A DNA stretch of 64,000 nt from Psammoneis japonica (taxonomy: Eukaryota), in NCBI GenBank assembly GCA_008632985.1, contig QPGO01000003.1, positions 682,001 to 746,000 of the forward strand. The letters run 5' to 3'. Under the pieces are notes generated by a model. The model ran no database searches. It was given only the letters and a program-made list of their open reading frames with translations, and was not told the DNA's origin. Within the stretch, counting starts at the first letter, position 1. Each line of letters starts with the position of its first letter. The position numbers were made by a program, and so were the translations under genes. Below, one piece after another: positions 31,686 to 64,000 of this stretch.

Positions 31686-31693
31686 GCGCCAAA
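31686..31693 (-). promoter_or_regulatory. Possible E2F-type site TTTGGCGC upstream of RNase H2C
   Basis: Matches the TTTSSCGC consensus about 160 bp upstream of the ATG. The motif is short, so a chance match is possible. Confidence 0.3.
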
Positions 31694-46029: not shown

Positions 46030-46400
46030 AGATGTGGCTGCATTGTTGTGAACTCCATCTCTCTCAAGGTCAGAGAAGAGTTGTTCAAGGAACAAGCAAC
46101 ACAGTTGAAGAAGCATGGTGCTGCAGTGGCAGTTGTGGTGTTTGACAAACAAGGACAAACTGCAGCCAAGGAGGACAAGGTTTGTGTGTGCAAACACTTG
46201 CACAACATTCTTGAAGTGGGTTGCCCTCCAGAAGATGTTGTGTTTGATCCCAGTGTGTTTGATGATTGGCACCAGCATGGAGGAACATGCAAACTGTGGA
46301 GTGGACTTCATCAACACAACAAAGACCATCAAGGAACAGCATCTGCATGCAAAGGTTGGTGATGGCATTTCAAACCTTTCATTTGGATTCCAAGGAGGCA
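46030..46400 (+). pseudogene. METH: Fragment of cobalamin-dependent methionine synthase (pterin-binding domain)
   Basis: CIVVNSISLKVREELFKEQATQLKKHGAAVAVVVFDKQGQ...PPEDVVFDP, then IGTSMEEHANCGVDFINTTKTIKEQ..HAKVGDGISNLSFGF. Confidence 0.9.
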
Positions 46401-49400
46401 AGCTTTTTTGGTGGATGTCATGTTGCAGGTTCTGCATGAAGCAATGTGGGGGGGCATGGGGTGCACCATGTGGTTTGTTTTGGAAAAGGCAAGAAGAACT
46501 GCAATGTGCACAAATCATCCTCTCTTGTGTTGCCAACACACTGATGCACATTCCTCTTGTTCAAAATGCAATCTGTCTCATTGATGCTTTCTTTGGAATG
46601 GGTCAAATGTGGATTGCGTTGTGCGGTGTGTCCGGGCACTCTAGCCAAGATTGGTTTGCAGAAGCTGGATTGGCATCCATGGGGATGGACTCCAATGATG
46701 TCTCAGCCAGTGCTTCAATCATGCTCACCCTGCACTGGTGTGCTCATCATTGCAGACACAGGTGAGTTGCATCCTTCACCAAAGACATTTGGAGATTTGC
46801 AGCCCAAAAGTGTGCTCTCTTTGGTTTCTGACTGGCATGGAGTTTTGTTTCTAATCTCAGTTTTCATTCCATTGCAGTTCATTTCCCATCACAGTCAGCA
46901 TCTTTGTGCCAGAAATGGACAAGCAGCAGTGCAGCAAATGACAAGCTGTGCACAGGTTTGATCCTCAAATTGCTTTGCATTTGATTTCAACATCACTTTG
47001 CCTCACAAAAAACAGAGTGAGGGGTTTGTCCCATGGAAATGTCACAGCAGTTGGCAGGGAACTTGTCAACACATTCATGATGTTGCAACAAAGAATTGCT
47101 GTCATGCAAGTGGCACCACCTCCTTTTCCATCACCAGGGCAGGCAAAATTTGATGAGTTGGTTGTGCAGAAACAAAACCGCAAGTTGTTTGAGCTGCTCA
47201 CAAATGCTCATGGCACAGCTTAGAAGAAAATGAATCAGCAATGATGCCTGCAAGCATGGCTTTCTTACAAGCATTGCAAAGCTCTTTGTGGAGAAGCAAC
47301 CCAACAAGTCACAACAAGAATTTGAAGCCAGGCTCAACTGTTTTGAGAAACCTCATGTCAAGCAATGTCAAGTTTGATGCAAGGAGAAACTTTTTTTGAA
47401 GACTGGAACAACAGGCAGCTGTGCGGAGAGCAAGAGACAGCATTTTTTGCAAGCCCTTCAAGTGCCACACGAGAATGCAACCAAATTGCTCCAATGAAAA
47501 CAGCCTGTTCTGGGGAAGCATGCAAAGTGCAATCAATGACAGCATTGAGATTGCACTTGCATCTTTGCAATTGATTCCAAACAATCACCATGATTTGATG
47601 CATCCAAGGTTCCAACACTGCATTGGATGCAACGGCGCACTGCTTCTTCTTTTTTGTGAAAAGCACAGACAAGATCATTGACCCCAGCATGGGCAGGAGT
47701 GCAGTCATGGAACTGTCACCGGTTCTCAGAGGCACTGGTTCTGTCTGAGGGCCATGCACAAGGTGGTGGCACAATGATGTTTAGATTGAACCAGCTCCTC
47801 ATGGGAAATGGCATGAAAGCCTCCCTTCCCAGGCTTTCAAATGATCATGATGCAAAAGCTGCAGCAGACTCCTTTGATGCACTGGCAAATTTTGTGTGTG
47901 GAGATGAAATGATGGAGTCACAGCACACACGTGCAATTGTGGCTTTTGAAACAATGGTTGGAAATGCAAGCTCAACTCAGGAGCAATCACGGTGTCTCAA
48001 AAGTTTTTGTTTGGTGCGTTGTCATTGAGTCAGGACAAAATCAATGAAACTGCTGCTGCCTGTTACAAGGTTGTTGCTGGGGTTGACACGATTGTCACAC
48101 AGGAAGCTGCCATGAGAAAAATGGTTTCCAGCAAAGCTCTTTCTCAGTCTGATGAAATTCTTGCCTTGGAGGTGCATCGAAACATTGCTGCAAGAAAACA
48201 TGCAAGACTGTCCATTGAAAGCAAGCATCAACCTTCAAAATCCTGCCACCCAAAAGTGGTGAGCAACACAAGGAAAAGCTTTGATCCAATGAATTTCTGC
48301 TTCTTGCAAAATCTTTGTAACAGGGCAAGCAACTGCCCGCAAAATTGACAGGCTGCACCGGAGTTGTCACACAGTGCAATCAGCTCCAACCAAACTTCCT
48401 GCACAAGTGAAAAGGTTGGTGGACCAGGTGCCTTGTCCAAGGGATCAGAGTTGGTGGTGGTGGGAGGGATCATGATGGGTGGATCTGGGGGCAAGGTGGA
48501 TTCTTCAGAAGCCTCATCCAGAGGAGAGGAAAAAGAAGCACCAAGAGTGCCAGGGAACATTTCACAAGAAAAAGAGTCATTGTCACATTTGTTGCTGTCC
48601 TCCTCCTCTTCCTCCTCTGCTTCTTCATTGCGGGTGGGGTGGGCTCCAAGTCTTCTTTGGGTGGGAAACTGGGTGGGTCATCATCTCCATTGAAATCTGT
48701 GCTGGGATTTGCTGACTTGTCTTTCTCAGAGGCAGCAATGGATGGCTGACAAGCATTTTGCTGTTCTTGGAAAACAAAAATGGCAGCTTGCAACAACTGG
48801 CTCAATTGAGTTGTGGCAGATGCACTGGGACAGGCTGCATTTTGCCTGATGCTACATTGGCAGCAACAATGGCAAGGAAGCATGCCAAACAAAGCATCCA
48901 GTTGGAAAAGGAAGGCTGTGGAAGTGGGATGAAACAATTTGATGCTTGCTCACAACCATTTGTTGGCAAGCAGATGTCTGACATTTTTGAATCAAACCAT
49001 TGAGTGGAGACTCAGTTCATTTTTGAATGAGACTCAATTGGCATGCTGGCAACAGCCGTTAGAGAGTTGGCCACAAAGAGACATTTCACATCATGTCACA
49101 CACACATGCAGACATTGATGCACAGATTGGATTGCATGGAGGATCCATTTAAATTCCAATGTAGATGTGCAGCCAAATAAAAAAATGTGGGGAGGAAATG
49201 CCCTTTTCAGGCAAGCAAAAAAACACAAAGAAGGGAAAAAGACAACTGTCACATGCACATGATCTGCCAGACTCAACCGCATCCATCACCTTGCTCACTT
49301 CAGTGCACTTCAGCACACACCAGAAAAATCACTGCAGCAGCAGTGGAGGATGATGGTCATCATGGAGTGGCAAATGAGCTGCACCAAATGGATGGCGGAT

Positions 49401-51309
49401 CATGCCAAGGCAATGCAGGACACAGCAAAGGTGAGAGAACATGTCAAGGAAACATCATTCCCAAGTGTCACGCCCATGTTCAACAACAAGGAAATGGAGG
49501 AAACAGGGATGCTCTGCAGAGACAATGAACAGAAAAATGTGGCCCAAGATGATGGATGGGATGCTGCAGGAACTGCCCGAGACAGAGCAAAAAATGCAGC
49601 TGCTCCACCTGTGGCTTACGATGAAACAAAAAAAGATGTGTCAGGAGTGGCTGGCAACAAAGAGGTCCAATGCATGCCAGGCACAGCAGGACAAGTTCCA
49701 CAGTGAGTGCAACCAGAGGGTGCAATGAGAGTGGCCATTGCAGCTGCCAACAGTGTTGTCACTTGCTTTCCCTGCTGCAAGAAATGCAGCTCTTTGTGCA
49801 TGCTGTGATGACAACAATTGCATCTTGCCATCCACAGACAGATTCCAAGATCACTTGGGAAACCCAGCTTTGCAGACAGTGTTCTGCAACTGCATGCTGC
49901 ATCTGATTGTTGGAGACACACACTGGAAAGATGAAAGATTGCATTTCCAAGGACAAGAGGATGAGTGCAGCATGTGCCAAGGCGCTTGCCCACATGTTCC
50001 TTAAGAACAACTGCAATGCATGGCATGCCAACTGCAAGAGCAAAAACAAGGATGGGACTCAGATGCCAGATGACAATGTGGAGGTTGATGATGAAGGAGG
50101 CCTGACAGTCCAAGAGGGAAGCAAGGGCTTGCATGAGACCATCATGCCAGACCCGACAGCTGAGGAGCAGGATGACTAGGACAAGAGCATGTTTGCACTC
50201 CTCCAGAAAGATCCACAAGAGCCGTCAGAGGAAGATGCATCTGCACAAGAACCAAAACAGAAGTTCAAGGATGCAAGGAAGAGTCCATCACAAAATGGGA
50301 CACGATGGTGAAGAAGATCAGAGACAAGCCAAAGATGACTGTGGCACAAGTCACAGCTCTGACTGAGGTTACAAAAGGGGTTGTTGACATCCAAAACAAT
50401 GTGGGTGCATCTGGCAAGAAGAGAAAGGTTGTCAGGAAACTCAAGCATTTTGCGGCAGCAAAGCCAAAAGACACAGACAGGAATGCGGAAGCACAAGACA
50501 CCAAGGGAAGAGCAAAGGGTGGTTGCCAAAGGCCAACAAGTTCTTTGTTGACATGGTCATGGAGATCAAGCAAGATGTTGCATGTGGATGCCTTGGCCGG
50601 TGGGAAGAGCTCTACAAAGCCATTGCAACTGAGCAAGATCAACGGGCAGCAAAAGAAGCACAAGATGGCTCGGATGATGAAGAGATGACCACCAGGTGAC
50701 TCTGCCAAAATCTGTGAACTGGAGTTGGTGGCAGTTTAGTTGAGATTAACTCTGCAGCAATGACTTGCATGCACGCATGTTGACAATCAATTGCAGCAGC
50801 ACAATGCATGCAACAAATGGATTGGACAATGGAGGTGATTGTTTGAACATGAAAGTCAACTGATTGACTTTGACAGCAAAGATTGAAAATGAATCCAAAT
50901 GTCACATTTGATCATCACCTGGTTGGCAACAACAATCCAAATGAAATCCCACAAAGCAACTTGTTCAGTGTTGCAAACTGATTGAGTTGCAGCTCACTCA
51001 TTGGGATCAATGGATGGCTGTTTGTTGATGTCTCCAGACATTTGTTGGTTTGCATGAACATTTGTTCATTTTCAATCACACCTGTTCATGGCAAACAGGT
51101 GTGACTCATGTTAAATGACAACAAGTCTTCATCACAAAATAAATTGTGTGCTGACACTCACACACGCTGTCTGCAACATTGTCCGTTGGTCTGACCACAA
51201 GACAATTCATGAAAACAGGCCTCTGATGTGCTGTGGGCTGCTGCACCATGACTGTGCATGGCATGAGTGAGCAGTGGGAGGCTGGACTCGGCAACTGCAC
51301 TGACAAGTT

Positions 51310-52340
51310 GGCATGCTCTTTCCAAGGCAGGCACTCTGGCGACACTTTGCTTGCTCCCTCATGCCCCACTGCTCTGCAATGTTGACAGTTCAACAGTTGT
51401 TGGTGACTTCCAAGTTCAAATTGGTTCTTCGATACAAGGCCTCCAGTCCAGCCCTTGTCACACATGTGAAGGAGAAGTGCGGGTGGTCTGATGAGGTGTG
51501 TGACTCAATCGACTGGCAGGTTCATTCCAAACTGATGTCTCACAACATCCGACGCAAGGTGACGGGCACTGTGAAACTCATCCAAGATTTGCCACCTGCA
51601 AATGAAATTGTCCACCAATGCAATCCTGCGTGCCCCAACTGCTGCACACATTGCCAACATCCCCTCAAAGATGGGGACCATGTTTTGAGTTGCCACTGCA
51701 ATGAATCATGTCGGCGCACTTTCCTGCAAGGCTTGTGGAAGAAATGTGACAACATCAATGCCTCTCCCTTGACAAGGGACCTGTTGTTACATGCCTTGGA
51801 AGGTTGGTTTCATGAAGACATGCTTTGCTCCAAAGAAGTCCACCACAGCGTTGCAGATGTGTTTCGATCTCAGGATGCAACAGGCTGGCGACATGTTTTC
51901 AGTGGTTGGTTTTCTTCCTTGTGGAATGAGGCCCAAACATCACATTTGATGTCCTCCAGCACGTGTTGCTCCTTGTCAGATAAAGACCAATGTTTGGGCT
52001 GGACGGCAATGATTGGCAGCTGCATGTGGTCACAATGGTGGGATCCATGGATGACCACAACGATGCAGTGCACGGACACGATTCGAAACAAGACAGTCTT
52101 TGCAATGGCAAGATGCTGAAGCAGAGGTCCAACAATCTGTTCCAGAGCTGACAGTGCTCAGCCCATGACCAAGCTCAGTTGTTTGATTCAGCAGATGAGC
52201 ATCTCACTCACTCTACCCACAGAATCCAAAATTGGCTGGCCATGACAAGGCCAATGTTCAAGTGAGTGTCCGCAAAGCCTGCATCTGGCAGTTCAAGGCA
52301 CGCATGCCATTGCAAGCCACTTTGGTGCAGCATCACCTGA
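51310..52340 (+). mobile_element. 3' part of a non-LTR retrotransposon ORF (C-terminal CCHC region)
   Basis: KEKCGWSDEVCDSIDWQVH...VKLIQDLPP...CTHCQHPLKDGDHVLSC...QDATGWRHVFSGWFSSLW resembles diatom LINE C-termini. Confidence 0.7.
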
Positions 52341-52510
52341 GGGTGATGCCGATCTTGGCTAATTGACACATGCTCCTGCCACACCTGGTGTGCTGGGAGT
52401 GTGGGTTAGCTTGTTGCCGGAGTTGCAGGGTGGAAGCACAGCAGCACTTAAAAATTGGACTTTGGGTTTTGTTTTGGACTCAGCAACTGCACTCAACATT
52501 TTGCACTTTA

Positions 52511-52765
52511 ACCTCAGTCAATGCAGAGGTGTGATGTTTGCCTGCACTCAGAGGTGGCCATCAGCTGTGTTTGGCACACCGTCTGCGCAGTCTTCACCAG
52601 ACAGACACACTCTGTGTGGGTGTGTCATTTTGCACCTCAGTCTTGGCAAACACAGAGGTGTGACAGGCAACTCTTTCAACAGGATTGCTGTTGTGCTGCG
52701 GGCTGATTGCACATTGGACAACCCCAAAACCAGTCTTGGCAAACACGGAGGTGTGATGTTTGCAA
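52511..52765. repeat. Three short related repeats (CAGTCTTGGCAAACACRGAGGTGTGA) about 100-120 bp apart
   Basis: Copies begin near 52511 (degenerate), 52634 and 52729. Confidence 0.6.
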
Positions 52766-53369
52766 CAGATGCTGCACAAAAAGCTTTCATCCAACCTGGC
52801 CACTGAGTGGCCAATGAGGGCGACAATTTTTCAAAATTGAAGCGTGCCAAAAACCAAGCATTTGTGACTTTTTGCATCAAAAGTGAAAAACAAAGTTGTC
52901 AAAATCCAAGTTCACCCAATCTTTCAGCTGCACAAACAGACAAACATGGCTTCAGTCTCAGCAACATGGCCTCAATCATCTGATCAGGCAGCACATGCAG
53001 CACATGCAGTGGTGCTTTCAGCCCCTTTTTCCTCTTTGGGATGAATTTTGTTGAGAATGATCATCACAACACTCTCCATGCAGTCAATGATGTCAATTGA
53101 ATGTGGCACACAGCAAAAAAGACAAGGTAAAATGTGGTGGCTTTTGTGTGCAAAAATGCAACAGATCGTTTGTCTCACAAAAAATTGTTCCTGTGTCATG
53201 TTGACACAAGTGCATTCCTAAATCCTGTGTCATGTTGACACAAGTGTAAGCCACAAAGCATCCAGAGCAAAGGCCGAGGCAAAAGCAGAGCCTTGTGAAG
53301 CTAAAACCAAAGTGGCAGATCCAATGCCCCCACATTGTCCCTTTTTTGCACCTTGTGTGCAGAATGCAA

Positions 53370-54830
53370 CAGCTCATTTGTTGAAAAAAATCAACATTGC
53401 ATCATGTGACCACAAATGCAAGCCATGAGGCACCCAGAGCAGTTGACACAGCAAGGGATGCAGGCAAACCAGAGTTGTGATTGCTCTGAATGTCAAAAAA
53501 GATTGGAGTGATGTCCTCGACAATTTTGGTGCCTCGGGATGAAAAACTGGGTGTGCTGAAATCAAACATTGGCAAACAGATGTCTTGTTGGTCAAGAGAC
53601 CCAACAAACAAGGGAAAAGTCAAAAAAGTGTACCTTGTCAAGTGCACTTGAGTGCACTGTGACCCTTGCGTGCATTTCTACGTGGGACCACACCAGCTGC
53701 AGCATGGCCAAATTTTGCAAGTGTGTTGTGCACTGTGCCACATTCCACACTGGTGTGTGCTGGCAAATGATGAAACGCATTGCACCAAGCAGTGGACAAT
53801 GCTCCAATGAACATGACAAAAGCCAACAATGTGCAGACAAAGCAGTTCTAAATTGGACAAAGAAAAGAGTTGTTGTTTGCAGAAAACTTGAAAACTCAGC
53901 CTCAAATCACATGCTGCACATTTTTGCAGAAGTTTTGCCAAACAAGATGGAAATGCAGACTGGGACCCACTGCTGCAACATTGCATCAAACTGCAAAGAG
54001 AAGGTGACATTGATCTGCCCCTGGAAGTCAGCATCAACAACAAATCCCTCCACAGAGTCAGTTTGCATGGGCGATGCTGCCTCTCTCAGCATGTCAATCA
54101 TGTCTTGGTCTTGCATGACAATGTGAGCATCATCTGTGGTGAGCTGCTCAGAAACAATGAAGCTCTGGTTCACTTCCTTTCGGAAACTCACAAGGCTGGC
54201 AATGGTGGAGCTCATCCCTGTTTCCTTTGAGATCTTCTTCCTCATGTTTTTCACATGGTCTTTGTTGTGAAGAGCGGGATGAATCTGTGACACTGCACTT
54301 GAGGCCTGGTTGCAGCCCCAAGTCTCAGCTGTGCTGGAGTCAACTCAGGAGCAGCTCTGACAAGCTCTGCAAGCTTTCCTTGTGCTGCCATTGGGAGCTT
54401 TGATGGTGGGGGTCTTGGGTGTTGGTGCCTCCCTTTGTGGCTCATGAGCCAAGAGATGGCACTGACTTCTTGACAGGTCAGCAGGCAGGTGCACTCTTTG
54501 TGCTCCAATTTTGACTCTTGCTCATGATTGGGGCACACCAGCTTGGGAGGGAGTGGTGACCCAAACTTCTTCCTTCCTGTCTGAGGCTGCGGGGCCTTTC
54601 AAGAAACTCTCCACAAAGGGAGCAAACAAAGACACCCATGCAGCATTTGCAAACTTTTCTCAAGCCCTCTGTGGATTTTTTAGTTGAGCAAGTGCCCATT
54701 GCCCAGCCTGTTGTGGGGGAGAATGCACCCAAGCCTTTGGCCCACCACTGCATCTTGCAGTTCGGAAACTCATGCTCTTCCACCACAGCCTTTTTTGAGC
54801 TCATGACAGGGGGCTTGACAGCCTCAGAAG
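53370..54830 (-). mobile_element. Decayed Mutator-like transposase with N-terminal GCM-like zinc domain
   Basis: GWAM...KVCKCCMGVFVCSLC...ERP, CP...LEHKECTC...HKGRHQHPRPP (GCM pattern), then QTDSVEGFV...INVTF...WVPVCISILFGKTS (DDE core start). Confidence 0.55.
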
Positions 54831-56966
54831 CAGCAGCTGAGGGGTGCCTGTCCTCTGCATGGGTGAACCCTGGGCTGGGTGTGCCTGGAGCTGACCTCAG
54901 CCTCCATCACCCGGAAGATTTCAGTCACCCTCTGCTGAGACTGAATCTGCTCCATTCTTGCTTGTGACAAAAGAAACTGGTGGAAAAAATTCCTGTCTAG
55001 AGCACATTCTTCATGCTGGGACAAGCTTCTCCCATCATCTTGTGAGTCATCCCCATCCATTGTGGTGGCAACAGGTGCTCTCCTCTCCCTGGAAGAATGA
55101 GAGTGTGTGGCTGTGGCTGACGGTCCTCTGCAAAAAACAAAATTGGGATGCCACATTTGACAGGTTGGTCAGACAAACAGCCCACATGGTGCAACTGTGA
55201 AGAAATTGGGGGGTTTTCACTCACCAAGCAGTGCTGCAGTGCTGCAGTGCTGCAGTGCTTCTTTACAAGGCGGGAAAGGCAAATCAAATGCAAGATGTGG
55301 AACATGTGGAATTCAACAGAAATTTTGTGCGGCATGGAAACACCGCATGTTGCATGATTTGTGTTGCATGCACACAGAGCAGAAACAGCACTGCAGCAAC
55401 AATGGCAAATGAATCAGACAAACAACGAAAGATGATGCAAATGCGACAAATGCGCAAAATGACAAACAAAAACATTGACATGAAGGGAAAAAATCAAGGC
55501 AGACAATGGCGGCTGCAGTCACCTTGTTGATTGCACTTTGCGCTGTGGACAATTTCGGTTGAGTTGTGTGTGGTTGTGTGCGATGCACAGCACAGGAAAT
55601 TCTGCTGAGTTTTCGTGGGACTTGGTGTTGGACGTCAACAACAACAACAACACTTTCTGCATGGAAACTCAGTGCAGTGACACACAGAGTGCACTCAATT
55701 GATCAATCACCACCTGTGCAGAAATGTGCAGGACATGCACCAAAAACCTCCAACTTTGCTTTTTGGGTGATCTGGTTGCAATCAAGACAGTGCCAAAAGG
55801 CCAAAGCAACTGACAATGAAAACTTGTGCATCACATCGTGTGACACATGATGGAATTTTGGGAGAAAAAATGGGCTGAAATTGATGCATTGACCAGTCTC
55901 AACAATTGCAAATCAAGGTGCACTTAGTTTGCCATTTGCGACCAAGCCACGACTTGCGCAGGAATGCACAGAAAATGTGCCAGGCTCCAGAATTTTCACT
56001 TTTTGATGATCTAGTTGCGATTGAAATGGTGCCAAATGACCAAAGCAATTGACCACCTGCACTTCTGCGGATGATGGAAAACCACATTGCAGAACTCTGG
56101 GAGAAAAACTGGGCTGAAAATGATGACTGTGTTGGACTTGTCGAATGGAACACAAAGCACACTAAAAAGCACACTTACGACTGAAAAGCACACTTGCGAC
56201 TGAAGTCGCACGTAGAATTCCACATGGTCATCTGGTGCACAAAAAAGGGTACACTTCAAGTGCACTTGAGTGCACTCATTTGTCTTTCCTCAACAAACAA
56301 CCACATCTGCCTCAAATCTCCACACTGTGAATCTGGAGTGTGCAATGGTCAATTCCATGACCATGGTTCCCACCCCTTTCTGTTGCTTTTGCACTGACAG
56401 TGTTCCTCACAGGTTTGCAGAAACAAACTGTGTCCTCATGCTGACCCAGGAGCTGAAGGTTGATGTGTCACTTGGATCAAACTCTTCATTCACTCCTGCT
56501 GTGAAGATTGTTGAACACTGGGCAGCAAGAGACAAAGGAATTGGATGCCACCAAACGTGCCCTGATGGAGTGCTTTGAACGCAATGAGTCACAAAAGCAC
56601 GATCATGACGGCAATCTCAAAACAATGGCAAGCGACAATAAGAAGAAATCAGAAACGCCGGTGAGTGTCAACAAGCAAGAGGCGTCCAAACACACGGTGG
56701 AAGAAGCGCGCAAAACGCGACAAGCACACAATGCAAGTAAAAAGACGGAACAAATAAAGACCAAAGAAGCCAAGGAGGCCAAGCAAAAGCTAAAGGAAGA
56801 ACGAGAGTGTTTATTAAAATACGAAGGGTAGTTGCTGAATCTCCCTTGCAAGCTAATTTTCATGCAGTGTCGTAATTCAGTGCTTCGATCCTTGGTCCAA
56901 CTGTAGGCATTTGACTTCCCAGTTCAGTCGCTGTACAAGAACCAGAGGCAGTGTGCCAACACCACT

Positions 56967-58294
56967 CTATTCTACTAAATGAAAGAGCTTCCGTAGCTCT
57001 TTGTCAGTAGTTTTCTTTTCCTGTTTACTCCATTCAATCACTTTCCCAAACGCTTGACTCAATCTTAGTGCCGTTGGCCTGTTATTTGGATCGGACTGAA
57101 AGCAAGCTTTGTACGCAGTGATCAAGCCCCGCTCCTCAATCATTGTAGAGTTGGCAATTCTTTCTGGCAAGAAGGGCAAGATACCGTTCAATTTGTTTTG
57201 CACCATTGTTTCCTTGGGTGGCGGTCCACCCGGTTCCCAATGGAACGGGTCATGCTTGGTCAAGATAAGAAAGTATATATTACCCAGAGCGAAGATATCA
57301 ACTTTCTCGCTCACGAAAGCCTGATTTCTGATTTCTTCTGGGGCGTTCCATCGTGAATTGATGTAGGAGGGAGGGAATCCACAGGGTTTTTTGGAAGTTG
57401 CGTTGCGCCGAAGTAGCACACCAACATTGAAATCGTTGTATTTGATAAAGCATTTCGAATCTCGAATGAAGTTGGCAATCTTCACATCGTTGTGGCAAAA
57501 TGTTGGCTGTGATGCATTGCCAATGTAATGCAAATCACGCATTCCAATGGCCAAGTCCCGCGCTAAGAAAATGCCATCATGTTTGCTTGTAAAGTTCACG
57601 TTCTGAATCAAAGGGTTCAGTGGCGTTTGACCAAATTCGGTAACAACCGATTGTCCACAAAAGCCATAAACATTTGCTACAAATGGTGAAGATGTGAGTC
57701 TCTCCATTACAATCGCGTCCACAATGGCATGTGGGTACGACACCTCATTGAATTCCTGTTCGAAACGCAACGTTTTCAATACGAACCACTTCTCACCCAG
57801 ACGAACTTTCCAAACCAATCTCCACGAACCTCGTCCAAGAACTTGCATTTCTGTACTATCACGTTCGAAAGCCCCATCAATATCAATTTCATGGAAAGAA
57901 TTGCACGTTGAATGAAATTGCGTCTGCCAATCACCATAAGGTTCGCAATCTTCATAGAAAGGACGATCGAATTTATTGATTGGGATCGGTTTAGATATGC
58001 AAACATTCGTACCAATGGGATAAACCGATCTGAGAGTATGATTTGTTGGTTTTGAAGCAAGAGACGGATACAGCAGTATGATTCTTGGTCTTGCTACAAA
58101 TGTTGAGTTCGCTTGTTTCTTTTGTGCCTCGACTGTGGTGTTGAAATCGAAATTCTTACGTACTCGACAACACCAGAGTCACCGATGAGAAAGAAGGCAT
58201 AACAGAGAGCTAGAATTGCTGTGGACCGTCGCCACGTGCTCCATGAACATCTACTTTGACGCGGTTCTCCGGTTGACAACATTGCTTCGACCAT
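56967..58294 (-). CDS. Protein kinase with N-terminal membrane anchor; probable intron at about 58090-58160 (exact junctions uncertain)
   Basis: LGRGSWRLVW, VLKTL, HNDVKIANF, NDFN, WNAPEE, EKVDIFALG, DPNNRP. The upstream frame continues DCEPYGDWQTQFHSTCNSFHEI. Confidence 0.8.
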
Positions 58295-58625
58295 GACAAC
58301 TTGCTGTAAGAGAAGGAATCGAAAACACCTAACACCCAACACCCAGCTACTGTAACTAACTAACACGTCGTACCTATTTTGTTACGACTGTCGATTGATT
58401 GTCGTGGTGTCGGTTGTCGGTTGTCGTTGCCGGCGGCAAATTTTAATAGTATGTATTTATATACGTACATTTGAATAAGAATATATATTAAAATCATACT
58501 GGCATACAGTAAGGACTTCGGGGCGGATTTCAGATTGCGGCGATGAGCGATGAGGATGAGGCGATGACGCCGTAGTACGTCGTTGAGGTTTTTCCCTTTA
58601 CGCCATCTTCATTCTCCAGCTGATC

Positions 58626-60291
58626 ATGGCAGAAACTCAAGCGGCCACAAGCGCCTCCGACCATGATGTTGACGGTCAACTTGACAGCAAGTTTGTTCGC
58701 GTCATGAATTTGCATGAGACTGGGATCAGTGTCGAACAGTTCGTCAAAGGTGGAGCGTCGACAGATTGTGACGGACTGTCACATTGGACTGGTCGATGGG
58801 CTTCCTGGAACTGGCAAATCATCCACGTTGTGGTGGTCACTTTGACAACTGCTGGCAGAAGGCATTTGGCTTCTCTGGACACACCTCGATCGGTGCGGAA
58901 ACGTCCATGATGTGGTCCACAGCAAACGGAAGTTTGCTCATCCGACCGACGGATTAGGTCGAATGGGATGCCCTGATCAAATCTTTGGATGATCTGTCCG
59001 AACAATGTTCAGCCATTGTGTTTGACGGGGTCAACCACATGAACTTCAACCAAGCAGTTCTCGCTTTGCGCAAATTTGCACTGAAAAGAACTTGTCTGAC
59101 CGCTGCGGTTTCACTGCAATGTCCAACAAAATTTAGAGAGAGCATGAACACAACCTGGACAAATGGGTGGAAAAACAGAAAGATGGAGTTTTTGTGGCAC
59201 AATTCTGTCATGCGCAGCACTCATGGACTCTTCTGGAAGAACATTTGAGCGCACGCGCAAACACCGATGGATCTGCTGCTGCACTCTTGGAGGAAGTGCT
59301 CCCTTCATTTGAGAAGGAGTGGAACACAGACATGACAGGCCAGAAAGCTTTGAAAACAAAAAAACATCAAAGCAACAGGAAGGCCAAACAACATGTGTCA
59401 GTCCAAGAAGCAGTGACCCAGAAACATGCATGTGCTGGCGGTTCCATGCGATGGATGGCATCGGAAACGGCAGAGTCGATGTCTGACTTGATTGCGGGTT
59501 GCCTCACAGAATGCATCCAATTGGACACTCTGGCAAACATCACGCTTGGACAGGAGTCACCCCACTGAAAAACTCATCTTCATTCTTCCACACCAGATGA
59601 CCATGGTCTGCCAGTTCGTTCATTGCTCAGCCAGCATGCAACTGTTTTGGCCGTTCAACTCCTTGGATCAGCTGAAACTAAAACCTTGCATCAACATGCA
59701 ATGAGACTCAAGAATCCACCATTCCTGGGTTGGGTGATTGAAGCAGATGTGATGCAGCAGTGCAAGAGTGGACCTTTGTTTCTTCAGGGGAGGGATCAAA
59801 CACGCGTCCAGTTTGCAATGAAGGGAGAAGATCCCACTGAATTCAACCCCAACTTGCTTGACGATGCAGCTTTGGCAAAATTGATGGCCCCACCAGGCAT
59901 GGAATCATGTGCATGGAAGTCTATGTGGTGGAACCAAGGTGGGCATGACACAGTTTTTGTGACGGCTGCTCCTGGTGTGGCGTTGCATCTTCGGTTTGGA
60001 CAAGTGACGAAATCATTGACACACTCCTTGAAGCTCCAGCATTTTTCTGAAGCAGTCAGCTCTCTTGTTGGAGCTGGCCACAGAATCGTCAAAGTTGAAA
60101 TTGCTCTCATTGCTTTGAAGGATGACATGCAGGGATTTTGTGTGATGCCAAGTGAAGCATTTGGTCGTGGTCTCCTGTCACATGCCAACTCACCAACACA
60201 GAACAAGAAGTGTGGGCAAAGGGCAAAGAGGAAAAGCTTTGTCGCTGTGTGCGGCATTGATTTGAGCCAGATGGGCCACATTTCACAGTGA
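58626..60291 (+). pseudogene. Decayed Crinkler-like P-loop NTPase plus restriction-endonuclease-fold gene
   Basis: Walker A VDGLPGTGKSS (about 58792-58824), AIVFDG, AGGSMRWM, GWVIEAD, and WNQGGHD...LRFGQVTKSLTHSLKL. Frameshifts and stops present. Confidence 0.6.
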
Positions 60292-61962
60292 CAAGATTCC
60301 ATGTGCCTGGCATTGGTGCAAGTGGCTCAAAATGACAGGATTGATGCAATGCACCCCCCGCATCACTGTGTCCAATTCACCTCTCAAGTGAGAATTTTTT
60401 TCTAGAAACTCAGTGCTTGGAGAATCAGCAATGTCCTCAGCATCATTTGAATCTTCATAAGTTAGATCCTCTCTGCTCCCCAAGAAGGTGAGACGATCAC
60501 CTCCCAGTGCTTCAAGTTCCTCTGCATTCTCACAGAAAAGAGCCGGAGCTTGTTTACATCCTGGTTTGGCATGGGGGGCTTCAGTGTTTGTGTTGCCCAG
60601 ATGAGTCCCTGCCAGTCTCATCTTCATTGAAAGCATTGAGATTTCCATTGTTGACAGCATCCAAAAACAAGGGATCACTTCCCACTGCTTCAATTTCAAA
60701 CTGCCATCTGTCACAAAACTTGCACATCATGTGAACAAACACATTTCCCATCTGCCTTTTCAGCTTCTGACCACCATCTTTCTCATTGTTGGCAATGCTG
60801 GAGGCTCAAAAAATTGACACATGGGCCCCAGCATGTCATCCACAGTGTTGGTGCGGGGTCACAAATTGAAAACATGCACAGCCGATGGCCCAGATGCAGA
60901 TGAAAGTGGAACAGATTGGGGTGCCGTTGGCCAAAAAATGACAAAAACAATCACTCTTAACTTGTGACAAAACAGTGGCACAATGGATTTTTGACCAAGG
61001 AGACTTTTCTCTTTTCTGTGAGCAGCACAAAATTGGCAAGAAGTGTGGAGCTGAGCTGTGAGCACATTTTGCTCAGCACAGGCTGGATGCAATTTTGAAG
61101 CCCACCATTGTCTGTGGATGATTGTGGCAAGTCTGCCAGCCATTTTCAGACTTGAAGAGTTGGGAATGCTGTGGTTGCTTTGGGGCATCATCTCCTCTTT
61201 TTGTGAGAACTTGCACAACAAACGCAAGCACTGCACTTGTTTTGACCCCCCACATGCAACAGCAGAATTGCAATCACAACTGCACTTGTTGTTGACATTT
61301 GCAAAAAGGCAAGTGCAAAATTCATGCTGGTGTCAAGGAGCCATGCCAAAAATCTGCCAGGGAACTCTTCAATTTTTCCACTTGGTGAGTCAACATTTCC
61401 AACCAAATGAAGCTTGAGCATTTTGTGTTGCTCAAATTTGCAACCGCAAAACCATTTTGCAGACTCAGCAAGTTGGACAGTTTTGTGGTGCTGCTGGCAC
61501 ATGTGGGAGGAGCAAGTGTGTCAACATGGTTTTGTGTGACAACCAACACCTGAGCAAGATTGGCGCAGTTGCTCCTTTTTGTCATGGTTTCCATTGTCCC
61601 AAAAAGGGACACCTGAAATGCATTCAAAGTGAAAGAAAGTCATGGCAAGTGCCATTTCTTCAGTCTGTGCAATTTGTTGTTCACTCTGTTTTGTGTTTTT
61701 GTGAGCTCTTGCTCTTTGCTCTTTAGCCCATGGCTTCTCGTCTGAATTTTGGGGGCTTCTTGGAAGATTGGAAGCCAGGCAAACAGCAACAGCTCTGCTG
61801 AGTTGGTGCAGTGCCTGGTGACAGAGAAAGAAAGAGAGGGAGAGAGAGGGAGCCATTTGAGAAGCCAGCAATGTGTGTGTTGTGGTTGTTCAAGGAGACA
61901 GCAAGTGTTGCAATTTGTTGTGCTTCATCAACTTGTGTCTCAACAAGAATGATCTTAGGATC

Positions 61963-62233
61963 TGTTGGAATGTTGGGGTGAGAGGCAGTTTTCACAACAC
62001 AGACAGACAATGTTGCAGTGCATGAGGTGCTGACAATTGTGAACAACATGGTGAATTTTCACTTGCAACTTGGGTTGAGTTGCAGGTCTTGTGCTCACCT
62101 TTTAGCTTCTGCACCCAGTTGACACAGTGACAGCAGTTGACAGCATTGGGGAAATGTGTTTGTGAGCCATGTGGTGAGTTTGGAGTTGGTGAGACCATGC
62201 ACACACCTGTTGGCAAACTGACAAACTCCAACA
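61963..62233 (+). repeat. 5' LTR (271 bp)
   Basis: TG...CA termini with a 7 bp terminal inverted repeat. Confidence 0.9.
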
Positions 62234-63610
62234 CAGAAGCTGAAAATTCAAAGCACAATGCTCAAAGAAGTGGCATTGTTCAAAGGCCAAGGATTGGAAG
62301 TCATCAAGAATCAAAGAGCACACCAGGCTAGGAAGTTGTCAGGAATCCAAAGATGCACCTCATGTTGGCAGATTGTTGTAAACAAGCTGGCTGGATGAGG
62401 GTGAAGAAACAATCTCTGGAGGGCCTTGCTGCAAATGAGCTGTCAAGAAGGGTCTGATGAAACAGGGTGTGGCAAAGTTGTGTTGGCATCAGTGAGACCA
62501 AGTGTGCAACAGTCGGCAAGTCAAATGTTGGTCTGAAACAACATGGGCAAGGAGACAACTGAGTGCAGAACCACAAAAGATTTGAAGAGTGGGTGCATGA
62601 CATCATTGCTGAACCAAGACTGCAGGCAGATGGTTGCACAGAAACTGCAAGGAAGATTGGTGAGTGTGCCGGAAGAATGTTCAGGCTGGAGATGCAGGTG
62701 TTGGCATCTCTGCTGAGGCAGGAGAGTGCACCAAATGAGCCAGAGCATCTGTCAGGAGACAGCACATTGAAACAGGAAAAAGCAACCTGGTGCAAGCAAT
62801 GTGATCACCATGCAAAACAGAATGCAACAACCTGCAAGACACAGAAGGCAAAGGCATTTGATGCAACCATGGGACAATGTGCAAAGGCCACCCACAACAA
62901 GACTGCTGAAAGAGTGATGGAGTTCATGAGAGTCATGAAGGAGTGGGACATGGCAACACTGTTGGCAATTGCTTCTCAAGTCAATCTTGTTTGATGCAAA
63001 TTATGAGAAGATGTGTTTGCATGTCCAGGTGGTCAAAGCTTGGAGAAGCAGTTGGCACCAATTTGTCAAGATGAAGGAGAGGCACTTCAAGGTCAACACA
63101 ATTGGCTCACAAGCATTGTTGAGATGGCAGAAACATCCTGTGGCAGGATCATCTTAGAGGAAATCACCAAGACAGAAGATGGGTTCAGCAAGAATGCTGA
63201 CAACACCTGGAACAAAGAAAGAAACAAGTTGTCAGTGGCAATGCTGATGGAAGGCATCAAGGCACATTGGCACATCTTGAACAAAGACCTGCATTGGCAG
63301 TTTGCACTGGGGGCAGACAACAATTGTTCCAATTCAGCTGAGGAGGCACTGCAGGTGTTGAACACATGTGAGACTGACAAGAAGCCCAAGGGCACAAGTT
63401 TTGCACAGAACAAGAAGAAGCAGGTTAAATGCTGGAAATGTGGGTGAGGCTGGCCATGTGAAAAAGGGTTGCCCTGACAACAATGATGTGGGCCACAGAA
63501 ATTGGCAGAGCAGTTGAAGTGGTGTTGGGTGGCATGGTTTCCAAGTGTCATCCTCCTGTGCTGCTTGATGTGTGTGAGGTGAGTCAATTGACGGCTTGTG
63601 TGAAGGAGTG

Positions 63611-63883
63611 TGTTGGAAAACATTGGGATGGTGAGAGGCAGTTTTTGCAGGACAGACAGGTGGTGTTGCAGTGCAAGATGCACTGATGATTGTGGACAAT
63701 GTGGCAAATTTGCACTTGCAACTTGGGTTGAGTTGCGGGTCTTGTGCTCAATTTTTGGTTTCTGCACCTGGTTGACATGGGGCAATGGTGGCTGGCAGCA
63801 AATGTGTGTGTGAGCCATGTGGCCAGCTTGGAGTTAACAGGACCAAGCGCACACCTGTCAGCAAGTGCCATGAAACTCCAACA
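63611..63883 (+). repeat. 3' LTR (273 bp)
   Basis: Colinear with the 5' LTR, same termini. Confidence 0.9.
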
Positions 63884-64000
63884 GGATCTTCTTGCTGCAT
63901 TTTGAATTTCTGGCAGCAGTGGCAACTGGAAACAAAGAAGCAGTGTTGGGGTGTGGGTGCGCGCAGAAAGAGGGGCAAGAGAAAAGGGCCAGGCTGCATC

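What the first reader, a model, noticed from the sequence alone, without database searches (positions are those of the whole stretch)
58600..59500. TA loss and CG loss are uncoupled at domain edges
Seen: 58621-58980 has more than 20 CGs by manual count but only one TA (a TTAG). The same CG-retaining, TA-poor fringe occurs at about 5540-5830, 31630-31750, 32860-33130 and 36720-37500. Domain cores lose both. Inference: TA conversion is faster or spreads further than CpG decay, so it is not a simple by-product of completed 5mC deamination, and it may mark recently silenced DNA.
Basis: partly seen in the sequence, partly recalled or inferred. Interest (0 to 1): 0.7.

Follow-up and report, generated by a model that had tools for sequence, protein, structure and literature searches.

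The report
TA loss outruns CpG decay
In the silent, repeat-filled stretches of this eukaryotic genome nearly every TA has been rewritten to CA or TG right up to a sharp border, while CG disappears more slowly and patchily, so two different mutation processes appear to share one territory.

Summary
58621-58980 holds 22 CG and one TA (a TTAG), against 14.7 TA expected at the island rate. TA and CG were segmented separately. At all 11 island/domain borders of the window the CG-normal state reaches 20-666 bp (median 182) into TA-free DNA. No base is CG-poor but TA-normal. Simulated coincident borders never gave this (0 of 20,000 resamples).

What is there: gene islands alternate with silent domains. 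The domains hold retrotransposon remnants, repeats and gene fragments. In them TpA (rho 0.055) and CpG (rho 0.22) were converted to CpA/TpG (rho 1.82).

TA loss matches the TpA-specific A:T>G:C hypermutation measured in Bigelowiella natans (2026 preprint). It is all-or-none, blanket and flank-dependent (RTAY gone, YTAR partly kept). CG loss is slower, graded over 1-2 kb and strongest at TCG. It leaves survivors spaced about 175 bp apart, which points to nucleosome-phased CpG methylation.

CG-retaining TA-free DNA also occurs inside domains. "Recently silenced" remains untested against a hypomethylated-shore reading.

The parts
58600..59265 (.). The flagged fringe: TA-poor but CG-normal DNA directly behind the border
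   Evidence: HMM states. 100-bp profile shows CG 6,7,4,7,3,2,5 and TA 0,0,0,1,0,1,0. 22 CG and 1 TA in 58621-58980. CA+TG is raised to 19-21 per 100 bp. Present as single-copy sequence in run X1 contigs.
56738..58599 (-). Gene island with a protein kinase gene (ORF 56967-58178). Its promoter side faces the fringe.
   Evidence: Pkinase E=7e-19. TA 88 and CG 91 in 1,862 bp.
58600..64000 (.). TA-poor domain, running off the window end
   Evidence: 18 TA and 71 CG in 5,401 bp. 0 of 6 read-through frames hit Pfam.
36714..56737 (.). Largest TA-poor domain (20 kb), with an interior CG-retaining patch at about 42500-45000
   Evidence: 78 TA and 253 CG in 20,024 bp. Bins 42501-45000 have CG o/e 0.46-0.50 and TA o/e 0-0.14.
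5510..20642 (.). TA-poor domain (15 kb) with CG-retaining fringes at 5510-5830 and 20169-20642
21163..24610 (.). TA-poor domain; fringes 21163-21456 and 24532-24610
28113..30638 (.). TA-poor domain; fringes 28113-28132 and 30531-30638 (the narrowest)
31626..33071 (.). TA-poor domain; fringes 31626-31751 and 32856-33071
14146..15008 (-). Decayed, frameshifted Ty3/gypsy-type reverse transcriptase and RNase H inside a domain
   Evidence: RT_RNaseH_2 E=4e-13 (14267-14575), RT_RNaseH (14146-14382), RVT_1 E=3e-6, just under the curated cut-off (14658-15008).
12348..14007 (+). Copy A of a 1.65-kb duplicate; copy B is 16404-18055. Both lie in the domain.
   Evidence: blastn 77% identity. 80 CA<->TG double differences in 1,627 aligned bases, split 40:40 and in random order.
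16404..18055 (+). Copy B of the duplicate
46036..46399 (+). Hypermutated, frameshifted fragment of a methionine synthase (pterin-binding domain)
   Evidence: phmmer against PDB: 4ccz_A E=3e-12 (frame of 44002) and E=3e-6 (frame of 44003). Pterin_bind E=1e-5, 25.4 bits against a cut-off of 25.5. Tyr>His/Cys and Arg>Gln/Cys at conserved positions.
38469..38810 (+). Domain copy of an island sequence (reverse complement of 27296-27624)
   Evidence: blastn 78%. Of 17 island TA, 8 align to CA and 6 to TG. Of 17 island CG, 5 align to CA, 6 to TG and 1 is kept.
61943..62209 (.). High-copy repeat inside the domain
   Evidence: X1 word depth 2,219 against about 65-70 in flanking single-copy domain DNA.

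Best explanation
Two point-mutation processes act on one sharply bounded, silent, repeat-rich chromatin compartment, and they run at very different speeds.

(1) A compartment-wide A:T>G:C hypermutation strikes TpA, giving TpG on one strand and CpA on the other. It goes to completion everywhere in the compartment, up to a border defined to within about 25 bp. RTAY is fully lost and YTAR partly spared. It is most probably the same kind of process that was measured in Bigelowiella natans. Its agent is inferred, not shown, to be a DNA-acting adenine deaminase of the TadA/ADAT2 type.

(2) CpG>TpG/CpA decay is much slower and uneven. It is absent in the first ~100 bp behind the border, about half complete by 100-300 bp, and deepest more than 1.5 kb inside. 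It is stronger at TCG. Surviving CpGs are spaced about 175 bp apart. This is best read as deamination of 5-methylcytosine laid down in a nucleosome-phased (linker, DNMT5-like) pattern on silent repeats.

Because TA is a fast, digital mark of membership and CG a slow, analogue one, any DNA with a short or weak exposure to process 2 is TA-free but CG-rich. At the edges I think this most likely reflects weaker CpG methylation close to active genes. Recent incorporation is the main alternative.

Shown: the conversions, their direction, the nesting, the gradient, the periodicity. Inferred: the enzymes, the methylation, the cause of the gradient.
For: Direction and nature of the changes:
- In the island/domain paralogue, 14 of 17 island TA align to CA or TG, and 11 of 17 island CG align to CA or TG.
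- Decayed methionine synthase shows Tyr>His/Cys and Arg>Gln/Cys.
- TA+CG+CA+TG stays about 23-24 per 100 bp, and GC is 0.466 against 0.474.
- The changes came after duplication and are independent per site. The commonest difference between the two domain copies is CA<->TG: 80 in 1,627 bases, 40:40, runs z=-1.1.

Separate kinetics:
- 11 of 11 borders are offset in one direction, and 0 bp are CG-poor with TA normal.
- TA sits at its floor regardless of CG.
- No partly converted TA zone exists. Even the nine clusters of residual TA hold 1 RTAY among 43.

Different spatial grain:
- CG survivors are periodic at 175 bp: power 3,557 against a maximum of 1,153 in 300 block shuffles. Both halves of the window show it (170 and 180 bp).
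- CG in islands is not periodic (P=0.59), and residual TA alone is not (P=0.17).

Different flank rules:
- TA: RTAY about 1% of island density, mixed flanks 7%, YTAR 31%.
- CG: survival 0.33 without TCG against 0.18 and 0.165 with TCG on one or two strands, chi-square P=1e-8.

Precedents:
- B. natans mutation-accumulation lines gave 230 of 231 hypermutable-region mutations as A>G or T>C, all of them at TpA, at about 1000x the background rate (preprint Results).
- DNMT5-linked linker methylation occurs in marine algae, and DNMT5a-dependent CG methylation of transposons occurs in a diatom (passages).

The sequence is real: X1 contigs at word depth about 62-70 match 58511-62089 with 5 differences in 3,482 bases. 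Of those 5, three are CG<->TG/CA and one is GTAC>GTGC at 58577, 23 bp outside the border.
Against: - There are no methylation, chromatin or expression data for this organism, and no whole genome is held. Neither DNMT5 nor a deaminase can be looked for.
- Only 11 borders in one window were examined.
- A single deaminase with a fast A activity and a slow C activity is not excluded. The TCG bias and the strict nesting would fit it.
- Base composition itself is periodic around surviving CG: GC is in phase, while AT and residual TA are in antiphase. Part of the CG periodicity could therefore be a composition effect rather than CG-specific.
- Fringe width does not depend on whether a promoter or a 3' end faces the domain, by my tabulation of gene orientation against the offsets. 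Promoter-facing offsets are 321, 79, 20, 126, 216, 62 and 666 bp; 3'-facing are 108 and 182 bp. This gives no special support to a promoter-shore effect.
- Interior CG-rich TA-free patches are not explained by closeness to genes.
- The expected TAY product asymmetry is seen domain-wide (R-CA-R gain 14.3 against R-TG-R 4.7 per kb). It is not seen in the CG-retaining fringes (gains 37 against 35).
Confidence: 0.65

Rival explanations
1. One reading: the fringes and interior patches are DNA that joined the silent compartment recently, with the domains creeping outward. TA conversion has already run to completion there, while the slow CpG clock has only just started. CG content of TA-free DNA would then date the silencing.
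For: - CG is fully retained in the first 100 bp (58 against 56 expected) and falls monotonically inward.
- Interior CG-rich TA-free patches far from any island (42500-45000) are easier to explain by age than by position.
- One edge TA (58577, GTAC) reads GTGC in X1 contigs.
- CG<->TG/CA differences between the window and X1 lie in this very fringe and domain (59468, 60243, 61078).
- My arithmetic from the preprint's counts gives about 1e-5 per TpA per generation in B. natans. At that rate TA would saturate long before CpG decays.
Against: - All 11 borders show a fringe, including those tight against promoters of intact genes. Creeping there would soon destroy the gene.
- No partly converted TA zone is caught anywhere in 48 kb.
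- There is no outgroup or LTR-pair series to date the fringes.
- The evidence from 58577 is a single site.
Confidence: 0.3
2. One enzyme does both. A TadA/ADAT2-like deaminase recruited to the compartment deaminates A in T-A(-Y) quickly and C in T-C-G slowly. The CG gradient would then report enzyme dose, and TA saturates even at the low dose near the border.
For: - CG loss is strictly nested in TA loss.
- CG is lost about twice as much where a TCG is present.
- Both targets have T at -1.
- Amphioxus ADAT2 deaminates DNA at 5'-TCG-3' as well as at A (passages).
- TadA recognises U-A-C-G (passage), and TAY contexts are the most depleted.
Against: - CG without any TCG is still about 67% lost.
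- Flank rules are opposite: R-TA-Y is most lost, while R-CG-Y is most kept.
- The dose would have to step from 0 to saturating for TA within about 25 bp, then rise at least another order of magnitude over 1-2 kb.
- B. natans hypermutable regions gave 230 of 231 mutations at A:T and only 1 at G:C.
- Amphioxus ADAT2 prefers GAA, not TA, for adenine.
Confidence: 0.15
3. The fringes are native, functional CpG-rich, TA-poor promoter or regulatory DNA of the neighbouring genes, kept by selection and not mutated at all.
For: - Several fringes abut promoters: H2A at 5510, RNase H2 subunit C at 31626, the kinase at 58600.
- 31626-31751 is 66% GC with CG o/e 1.32.
Against: - CA+TG rises by about the amount of TA lost already in the first 100 bp (19.4 against 14-16 per 100 bp).
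- Fringes also flank 3' ends (30638, 56737).
- The same state occurs kilobases inside domains.
- CG>TG differences between the window and X1 occur in the 58600 fringe.
- The 58600 fringe reads as frameshifted ORF pieces with no family match.
Confidence: 0.05
4. Artefact: modified bases made a basecaller or assembler miscall TA and CG as CA/TG in heavily modified DNA.
For: Methylation-dependent systematic miscalls are known for some long-read basecallers (recalled, not checked here). Random CA-versus-TG outcomes could arise from strand-dependent miscalls.
Against: - Contigs of run X1, built from 31-letter words at depth about 62-70, reproduce the TA-free sequence over 58511-62089 with 5 differences in 3,482 bases. 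That needs accurate reads.
- The domains also carry frameshifts, about 11% non-target divergence between duplicates and decayed genes.
- Caveat: X1 may be the data the window was assembled from.
Confidence: 0.02

Closest known systems
TpA-specific hypermutation of integrated viral and other foreign DNA in Bigelowiella natans (Mettrop et al., bioRxiv 10.64898/2026.01.13.699255; abstract, Results and Discussion read)
   Same: - A>G/T>C exclusively at TpA, giving TpG/CpA.
- Confined to discrete silent regions.
- Long-term signature of TpA depletion with CpA+TpG enrichment in clusters of 1-kb windows.
- Depleted regions are mostly unannotatable, with RT and transposase remnants.
- Both strands are hit.
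   Different: - Here the depletion is saturated (rho TpA 0.055, against 0.45 for their NCLDV region) and covers 75% of a 64-kb window. They report 124 clusters in 95 Mb.
- No viral hallmark gene was found here.
- Flank dependence (RTAY against YTAR), border sharpness and any relation to CpG are not described in their text ('CpG' 0 occurrences, 'boundar' 0). Their supplements were not readable here.
- No mutation-rate measurement exists for this organism.
- The organism seems different: intron-poor genes, and island TpA at 4.1% of dinucleotides against 6.0% for their non-viral nuclear genome. This is not proven.
Repeat-induced point mutation (RIP) of Neurospora and other fungi, and the TCG-targeted RIP-like hypermutation of basidiomycetes. 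RIP abstracts were seen in the listings; the TCG detail is recalled.
   Same: Irreversible point-mutation defence that riddles repeats and duplicated genes with transitions and leaves a dinucleotide signature. The CG component here is also strongest at TCG.
   Different: - RIP is C>T at CpA and enriches TpA. Here TpA is destroyed and CpA/TpG accumulate, the opposite direction.
- DNA that is now single-copy (58.5-61.9 kb) is converted.
- Outcomes are site-independent, with no strand runs.
CpG decay of methylated transposons, and DNMT5-linked nucleosome-linker methylation of marine algae and diatoms (passages of PMC9246332 and PMC9998398; the primary paper, Huff & Zilberman 2014, is recalled and was not seen)
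   Same: CG>TG/CA loss restricted to silent repeat-rich DNA beside unmethylated-looking gene islands. Surviving CG shows a nucleosome-scale (~175 bp) periodicity.
   Different: Methylation itself is unobserved here. The periodicity is seen in sequence, not in a methylome. The coupling with a TA-erasing process is not part of that system.
DNA deamination by tRNA adenosine deaminases (TadA / ADAT2-ADAT3; passages of PMC10586758 and PMC10354150)
   Same: T (U33) at -1 of the edited A. TadA's U-A-C-G motif resembles the most depleted TAY contexts. Amphioxus ADAT2 deaminates C at TCG in DNA, the CG context most depleted here.
   Different: No enzyme could be identified, because no genome is held. 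Amphioxus ADAT2 prefers GAA for adenine. The natural enzymes act on single strands or tRNA loops. The product asymmetry expected for a strict TAY rule is not seen in the fringes.
ADAR hyperediting and APOBEC editing fossilised in retroelements. The ADAR neighbour preferences are recalled, apart from the upstream-U preference stated in the preprint's Discussion.
   Same: Deaminase-type transition clusters in mobile DNA. ADAR favours a 5' U.
   Different: Contexts with G after the TA, such as TTAG, which ADAR's recalled 3'-G preference would edit best, are among the best-preserved TA contexts here. CA and TG are balanced with no strand runs. Non-retroelement DNA is converted, with sharp borders next to genes.

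Membership tests
B. natans-type TpA hypermutation of silent/foreign DNA | Substitutions are A>G/T>C at TpA, yielding TpG/CpA | tested here: met
   14 of 17 island TA align to CA (8) or TG (6) in the domain paralogue and none is kept. There are 80 CA<->TG discordant sites between domain duplicates. Domain rho is TA 0.055 and CA+TG 1.819.
B. natans-type TpA hypermutation of silent/foreign DNA | [quoted passage not shown] | tested here: met
   Six TA-poor segments of 1.4-20 kb. Pooled over the domains, rho is TA 0.055 and CA+TG 1.819. TA o/e in 500-bp bins is mostly 0-0.14. CA+TG was not computed per 1-kb window.
B. natans-type TpA hypermutation of silent/foreign DNA | Targets are integrated viruses, transposons or other foreign DNA, and are transcriptionally silent | tested here: inconclusive
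   RT/RNase H remnants and a high-copy repeat are present. So are fragments of ordinary genes (methionine synthase; an island paralogue). No viral hallmark was found: 0 of 108 domain ORFs >=120 aa and 3 of 296 ORFs of 65-119 aa gave a hit above Pfam's cut-off, all three RT-related. Expression could not be tested.
B. natans-type TpA hypermutation of silent/foreign DNA | Directly measured, about 1000-fold raised de novo mutation rate in the regions | not testable with these tools
   No mutation-accumulation or population data. Only 5 differences between the window and X1 contigs in 3,482 single-copy domain bases, one of them TA>TG at the border.
B. natans-type TpA hypermutation of silent/foreign DNA | Host encodes an ADAT2-like candidate deaminase | not testable with these tools
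   No whole genome is held for this window.
Fungal RIP | C>T at CpA (or TCG) in duplicated DNA, enriching TpA | tested here: not met
   TpA is depleted about 10-fold and CpA/TpG are enriched. The direction is shown.
Fungal RIP | Acts on repeated sequence only | tested here: not met
   58472-61942 has single-copy word depth (60-83) yet is fully TA-converted. Past copy number is unknown.
5mC-driven CpG decay with DNMT5-type linker methylation | CG>TG/CA transitions confined to silent repeat DNA | tested here: met
   11 of 17 island CG align to CA/TG in the domain copy. At 25 sites one duplicate keeps CG while the other has TG or CA. Domain CG rho is 0.224 against 0.938 in islands.
5mC-driven CpG decay with DNMT5-type linker methylation | Nucleosome-scale periodicity of the methylated / spared CpG | tested here: met
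   Seen in sequence only. CG-CG spacing has a 175-bp period, power 3,557 against a shuffle maximum of 1,153 (0 of 300). It is replicated in both halves and absent from islands. The confound with periodic GC content is noted.
5mC-driven CpG decay with DNMT5-type linker methylation | 5-methylcytosine present on these CpGs; DNMT5 encoded | not testable with these tools
   No methylome, no bisulfite or raw-signal run listed, no genome.
ADAR-type RNA hyperediting fixed through reverse transcription | 3' G preferred and strand-coordinated clusters on one strand of retroelements | tested here: not met
   TTAG (36) and CTAG (16) of 185 residual TA are among the best preserved, and RTAY are lost. CA 6,593 against TG 6,695. 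40:40 outcomes in random order.
TadA/ADAT2-like DNA deamination | T at -1 and pyrimidine (C) at +1 of the edited A; C editing at TCG | tested here: inconclusive
   TAY-containing contexts are most depleted and TCG is about twice as depleted as other CG. The one-sided-context product asymmetry is absent in the fringes (37 against 35). Context totals do not balance exactly: GCAG is over-enriched.

The most novel reading that the evidence does not exclude
This eukaryote marks every stretch of non-protected DNA for chemical rewriting. A chromatin-guided nucleic-acid deaminase erases all TpA, and more slowly TCG/CpG, from silent DNA with near base-pair-sharp borders. The result is a permanent 'TA-free alphabet' for heterochromatin, with no TATA, TAA/TAG or Tyr codons, that cannot be reactivated. 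The CG-retaining fringes and interior patches would be the moving front and recent conquests of this compartment. TA (fast) and CG (slow, nucleosome-phased) would then form a built-in two-hand clock that dates silencing events across the genome.
Probability: 0.15. Interest if true: 0.85.

Novelty: new member of a known kind. Interest (0 to 1): 0.6.

Why it matters
TpA-targeted hypermutation of silent DNA has so far been reported once, in one chlorarachniophyte (2026 preprint). That report says nothing about CpG or about borders.

This window shows the same signature run to saturation, apparently in another organism. The nearest protein-model neighbours of its kinase are diatom clusters, which is a lead only. 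It adds three things that make the mechanism testable:
- A flank rule: RTAY is lost, YTAR is spared.
- Borders sharp to about 25 bp beside intact genes.
- A slower CpG decay nested strictly inside, graded from the border, with survivors spaced about 175 bp apart.

If the reading holds, TA status tells whether DNA belongs to the silent compartment. CG content of TA-free DNA tells either how long it has belonged or how strongly it is methylated. That would be a natural pair of clocks for dating silencing, for finding domain spreading, and for separating deaminase-based from methylation-based genome defence.

There is also a practical point. TA-free DNA lacks TAA/TAG stops. It yields 22.5 spurious ORFs of >=120 aa per 10 kb, against 12.5 in the gene islands, and Cys/His-rich 'zinc-finger-like' translations. 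Gene callers will over-predict there.

Tried and rejected
- Whole genome: none held, so no genome-wide border profile and no search for DNMT5 or deaminases.
- Rfam (0 matches) and tRNA scan (0): nothing in the window.
- Earlier scan notes: none for this genome or its look-alikes. A word search returned only unrelated phage and bacterial notes.
- Relatives elsewhere. The island amine oxidase found 2 proteins (69% and 38% identity) among 3,283 candidates. Two metagenome scans, with the window protein and with the 69% relative, returned no confirmed locus (137 and 40 pattern matches, 0 confirmed). No related border could be examined.
- A 395-aa domain ORF (15959-17146) had no homologue among 2,169 candidates.
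- The fringe's content could not be identified. 0 of 6 read-through frames of 58591-64000 hit Pfam. PDB phmmer of 58708-58989 and 58958-59245 gave only E>0.5. A 'GLPGTGKSS' P-loop-like string is my recognition only.
I replaced it by standard-code ORF scans.
- Sequencing runs: no RNA holder listed. X2 covered only 8 of 30 bins (the island) and X3 covered none. These blanks are not used as evidence on expression.
- A strand or 3'-flank product asymmetry (TAY rule) is seen domain-wide but not in the fringes. Discordant sites are spread evenly over flank classes. I do not claim it.
- Residual-TA clusters as 'unconverted mini-islands': rejected. They hold 1 RTAY of 43.
- Correlation of residual TA with CG: none.
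- Phasing of CG relative to the borders: weak. Rayleigh p about 0.008 at 180 bp, uncorrected and confounded by the gradient. Not claimed.
- Taxon: Atlas neighbours gave diatom clusters for the kinase but a rotifer-labelled cluster for the amine oxidase. This is a lead only.
- Literature. Searches combined TpA and CpG with terms such as hypermutation, transposable elements, genome defence, diatom, endogenous viral elements, adenosine deaminase and A-to-G. They found only the B. natans preprint on TpA hypermutation, and nothing linking it to CpG decay or to domain borders.
Full report
**What the window is.** The 64-kb window is eukaryotic and no whole genome is held for it. Global dinucleotide odds are extreme: TA 0.19, CG 0.40, CA 1.69, TG 1.65.

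A two-state HMM on TA positions alone divides the window into six TA-normal islands (16,022 bp; 4.09 TA and 5.09 CG per 100 bp) and six TA-poor domains (47,978 bp; 0.38 TA and 1.26 CG per 100 bp).

The islands carry ordinary, intron-poor genes: a histidine-kinase-type ATPase, histone H2A, an amine oxidase, a class C GPCR, a protein kinase and RNase H2 subunit C. 6 of 13 ORFs >=250 aa have Pfam families, and all six lie in islands.

The taxon is not established. The kinase's nearest protein-language-model clusters are diatom-labelled, but the amine oxidase's nearest cluster is rotifer-labelled. I treat 'diatom-like' as a lead only.

**What the domains are.** They are decayed, silent-looking DNA.
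- 0 of 108 domain ORFs >=120 aa reach a Pfam cut-off.
- Among 296 ORFs of 65-119 aa, three adjacent minus-strand ORFs at 14146-15008 carry RT_RNaseH_2 (E=4e-13), RT_RNaseH and RVT_1. This is a frameshifted Ty3/gypsy-type pol.
- One ORF carries a pterin-binding fragment. phmmer against the PDB identifies it as methionine synthase, in two frames over 46036-46399 (E=3e-12 and 3e-6).
- Word depth in run X1 shows a high-copy repeat at 61943-62209 (2,219 against about 65-70).
- No viral hallmark was seen.

**The domains were made by point mutation of normal sequence.**
- A domain segment (38469-38810) is a paralogue of island sequence (27296-27624). Of 17 island TA, 8 align to CA and 6 to TG, and none is kept. 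Of 17 island CG, 5 align to CA and 6 to TG, and 1 is kept.
- In the methionine synthase remnant, conserved Tyr read His or Cys and conserved Arg read Gln or Cys. This is what TAY>CAY/TGY and CGN>CAN/TGN predict.
- The sum TA+CG+CA+TG stays near 23-24 per 100 bp. G+C is unchanged (0.466 against 0.474).
- Two domain copies of a 1.65-kb segment (12348-14007 and 16404-18055) differ most often by the double change CA<->TG: 80 sites in 1,627 aligned bases, split 40:40 and in random order (runs z=-1.1). Each copy therefore resolved ancestral TA or CG independently, site by site, after duplication, on either strand.
- CA and TG are balanced window-wide (6,593 against 6,695).
- The sequence is not an assembly or basecalling artefact. 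Contigs of run X1, at 31-letter-word depth about 62-70, match 58511-62089 with 5 differences in 3,482 bases. X1 may, however, be the source data.

**The observation.** 58621-58980 has 22 CG and one TA, a TTAG at 58955. At the island rate 14.7 TA are expected (P=6e-6). The four other named fringes are also TA-poor and CG-retaining.

Separate HMMs on TA and on CG give 11 borders. At every one the CG-normal state extends into TA-free DNA, by 20 to 666 bp (median 182). 2,548 bp are TA-poor and CG-normal, and 0 bp are the converse.

A simulation of 300 borders at which both densities change at the same base gives offsets centred on 0 (sd 94, 95th percentile 124). None of 20,000 resamples of 11 reaches the observed mean or median.

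Averaged over the 11 borders, TA falls from about 5.6 to 0.18 per 100 bp in one step. CG is 5.4, 3.5 and 2.0 in the first three 100-bp bins. It is about 1-2.4 out to 1.5 kb and mostly under 1 beyond that. 9 of 11 borders individually exceed the domain-wide CG rate in their first 300 bp.

The uncoupling is not peculiar to edges. 35 of 157 300-bp domain bins keep >=6 CG, at a median 1.1 kb from a border. A 2.5-kb interior stretch (42500-45000) has CG o/e about 0.47 with TA at the floor.

TA is 'digital'. Residual TA density is 0.40, 0.38 and 0.38 per 100 bp in CG-high, CG-mid and CG-low bins (Spearman 0.006). No partly converted region exists. Even the nine clusters of residual TA contain 1 RTAY among 43.

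**Rules of the two processes.**

TA loss depends on flanks. Relative to island density, RTAY survives at about 1%, mixed flanks at about 7% and YTAR at about 31%.

CG loss has a different rule. Survival is 0.33 where neither strand reads TCG, and 0.18 and 0.165 where one or both do (P=1e-8). R-CG-Y is the best kept, whereas R-TA-Y is the most lost.

The most telling difference is spatial. Surviving CGs in the domains are spaced with a ~175-bp period (power 3,557; maximum of 300 block shuffles 1,153). It is seen independently in both halves of the window (170 and 180 bp, P<=0.003). It is absent for CG in islands (P=0.59), for GC (0.60), for CC/GG (0.14) and for residual TA alone (0.17).

Around surviving CG, GC dinucleotides are in phase, while AT, CA/TG and residual TA are in antiphase. 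Part of the signal may therefore be a periodic base composition. Either way it is nucleosome-sized.

**Comparison with what is known.**

The library holds one report of TpA-targeted hypermutation, a 2026 preprint on Bigelowiella natans. I read its abstract, Results and Discussion.
- In mutation-accumulation lines, two integrated viral regions mutate about 1000-fold faster than the rest of the genome.
- 230 of 231 mutations there are A>G or T>C, all of these at TpA.
- The genome holds 124 TpA-depleted, CpA+TpG-enriched clusters.
- An ADAT2-like deaminase is proposed as the agent.
- The text never mentions CpG or borders.

From its figures the AT>GC rate in the NCLDV region exceeds the GC>AT rate 176-fold. 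The per-TpA rate comes to about 1e-5 per generation, by my arithmetic. This makes 'TA saturates long before CpG decays' quantitatively plausible.

Other comparisons:
- CpG decay of methylated repeats is commonplace.
- Passages I read state that DNMT5 is linked to periodic, linker-confined methylation in marine algae. Loss of DNMT5a removes CG methylation from transposons in a diatom.
- TadA recognises U-A-C-G, and amphioxus ADAT2 deaminates DNA at TCG. These echo the TAY and TCG biases here, but the enzyme cannot be sought without a genome.
- RIP is excluded as a family, because it runs the other way (CpA>TpA).
- ADAR-type editing is excluded. TAG contexts are spared, both strands are hit equally, and single-copy non-retroelement DNA is converted.

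**Best explanation and its rivals.**

I conclude, with confidence about 0.65, that two processes share one sharply bounded compartment. The first is a fast, blanket, flank-dependent TpA>TpG/CpA hypermutation. The second is a slow, graded, nucleosome-phased CpG decay, probably through 5mC. TA-free but CG-rich DNA is simply DNA on which the second process has acted little.

Why it has acted little at the edges is open.
- I lean to weaker CpG methylation near active islands. All 11 borders show the fringe, including those tight against intact genes, and no moving front of half-converted TA is ever caught.
It is hinted at by a border TA (58577, GTAC) that reads GTGC in X1, and by CG<->TG/CA differences at 59468, 60243 and 61078.
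- Fringe width does not depend on whether a promoter or a 3' end faces the domain. This comes from my tabulation of gene orientation against the offsets. It gives no extra support to a promoter-specific shore.
- A single deaminase with fast A and slow C activity (about 0.15) fits the strict nesting and the TCG bias. It does not fit the opposite flank rules, the 67% loss of non-TCG CpG, or the dose profile it would need.
- Native CpG-island promoters (about 0.05) and an artefact (about 0.02) are unlikely.

**Limits.** The analysis covers one window and 11 borders. There is no methylome, expression data, outgroup or genome. The TAY product asymmetry seen domain-wide is not reproduced in the fringes, so I do not claim which flank is read. 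The periodicity is confounded with composition.

**Verdict.** The main inference is supported. The 'recently silenced' part is untested.

The thing itself is a new, saturated instance of a just-described kind of genome defence, coupled here to CpG decay in a way not yet in print.

Noticed in passing
all TA-poor domains (5510-20642, 21163-24610, 28113-30638, 31626-33071, 36714-56737, 58600-64000): Surviving CpGs are spaced with a ~175-bp (nucleosome-sized) period, replicated in both halves of the window. GC dinucleotides are in phase with them. AT, CA/TG and residual TA are in antiphase. CG in the gene islands shows no such period.
   Followed up: partly
all TA-poor domains: Residual TpA is strongly flank-dependent. 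TTAG, TTAA, CTAG and CTAA make up 102 of 185 survivors. ATAT, GTAT, ATAC and GTAC make up only 6, although they are the commonest TA contexts in the islands (205 of 655).
   Followed up: yes
all TA-poor domains: CpG loss is about twice as deep where a TCG is present on either strand (survival 0.17-0.18 against 0.33). GCGC and GCGG are the best-kept contexts.
   Followed up: partly
46036-46399 (+): A roughly 120-residue fragment of methionine synthase (pterin-binding domain), frameshifted, with Tyr>His/Cys and Arg>Gln/Cys changes, sits deep in a domain. The rest of the gene was not detectable, so it may be a captured gene fragment.
   Followed up: partly
14146-15008 (-), with duplicates 12348-14007 and 16404-18055: Decayed Ty3/gypsy-type RT and RNase H lie next to a 1.65-kb segment that recurs 4,056 bp away at 77% identity. 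Whether the pair are LTRs or two tandem element copies was not resolved.
   Followed up: partly
44678-44905 (-): A sub-threshold C2H2 zinc-finger hit falls in a TA-free ORF. TAY>TGY/CAY turns Tyr into Cys or His, so TA-free DNA may mimic zinc fingers. The B. natans preprint also reports a zinc-finger family enriched among TpA-depleted CDS, which might be the same artefact (speculation).
   Followed up: no
whole window: Without TAA/TAG stops, the domains give 22.5 ORFs of >=120 aa per 10 kb against 12.5 in the gene islands, on both strands. Gene predictors are likely to call false genes there.
   Followed up: partly
58577: The last-but-one TA before the border (GTAC, 23 bp outside the TA-free side) reads GTGC in all X1 contigs covering it. 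In the single-copy domain behind it, 3 of the 4 other differences between the window and X1 are CG<->TG/CA (59468, 60243, 61078).
   Followed up: partly
34604-34606 (-): An in-frame TGA splits the 7tm_3 domain of the class C GPCR into two adjacent ORFs. The Pfam coordinates leave about 45 extra residues between the two matches, so this is most simply a short intron (~135 nt) and not a recoded stop.
   Followed up: partly
19693-20151: A 229-bp tandem duplication (2 copies, about 90% identical) has only 1 CA<->TG discordant site. It therefore arose after TA conversion. Its copies differ mainly by transitions, including 3 CG/TG and 3 CA/TA.
   Followed up: no
28001-30000: Strong local CA/TG skew of opposite sign in adjacent kilobases (CA 82 / TG 145, then CA 139 / TG 89). 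Whether this is ancestral strand composition or strand-biased conversion is unknown.
   Followed up: no
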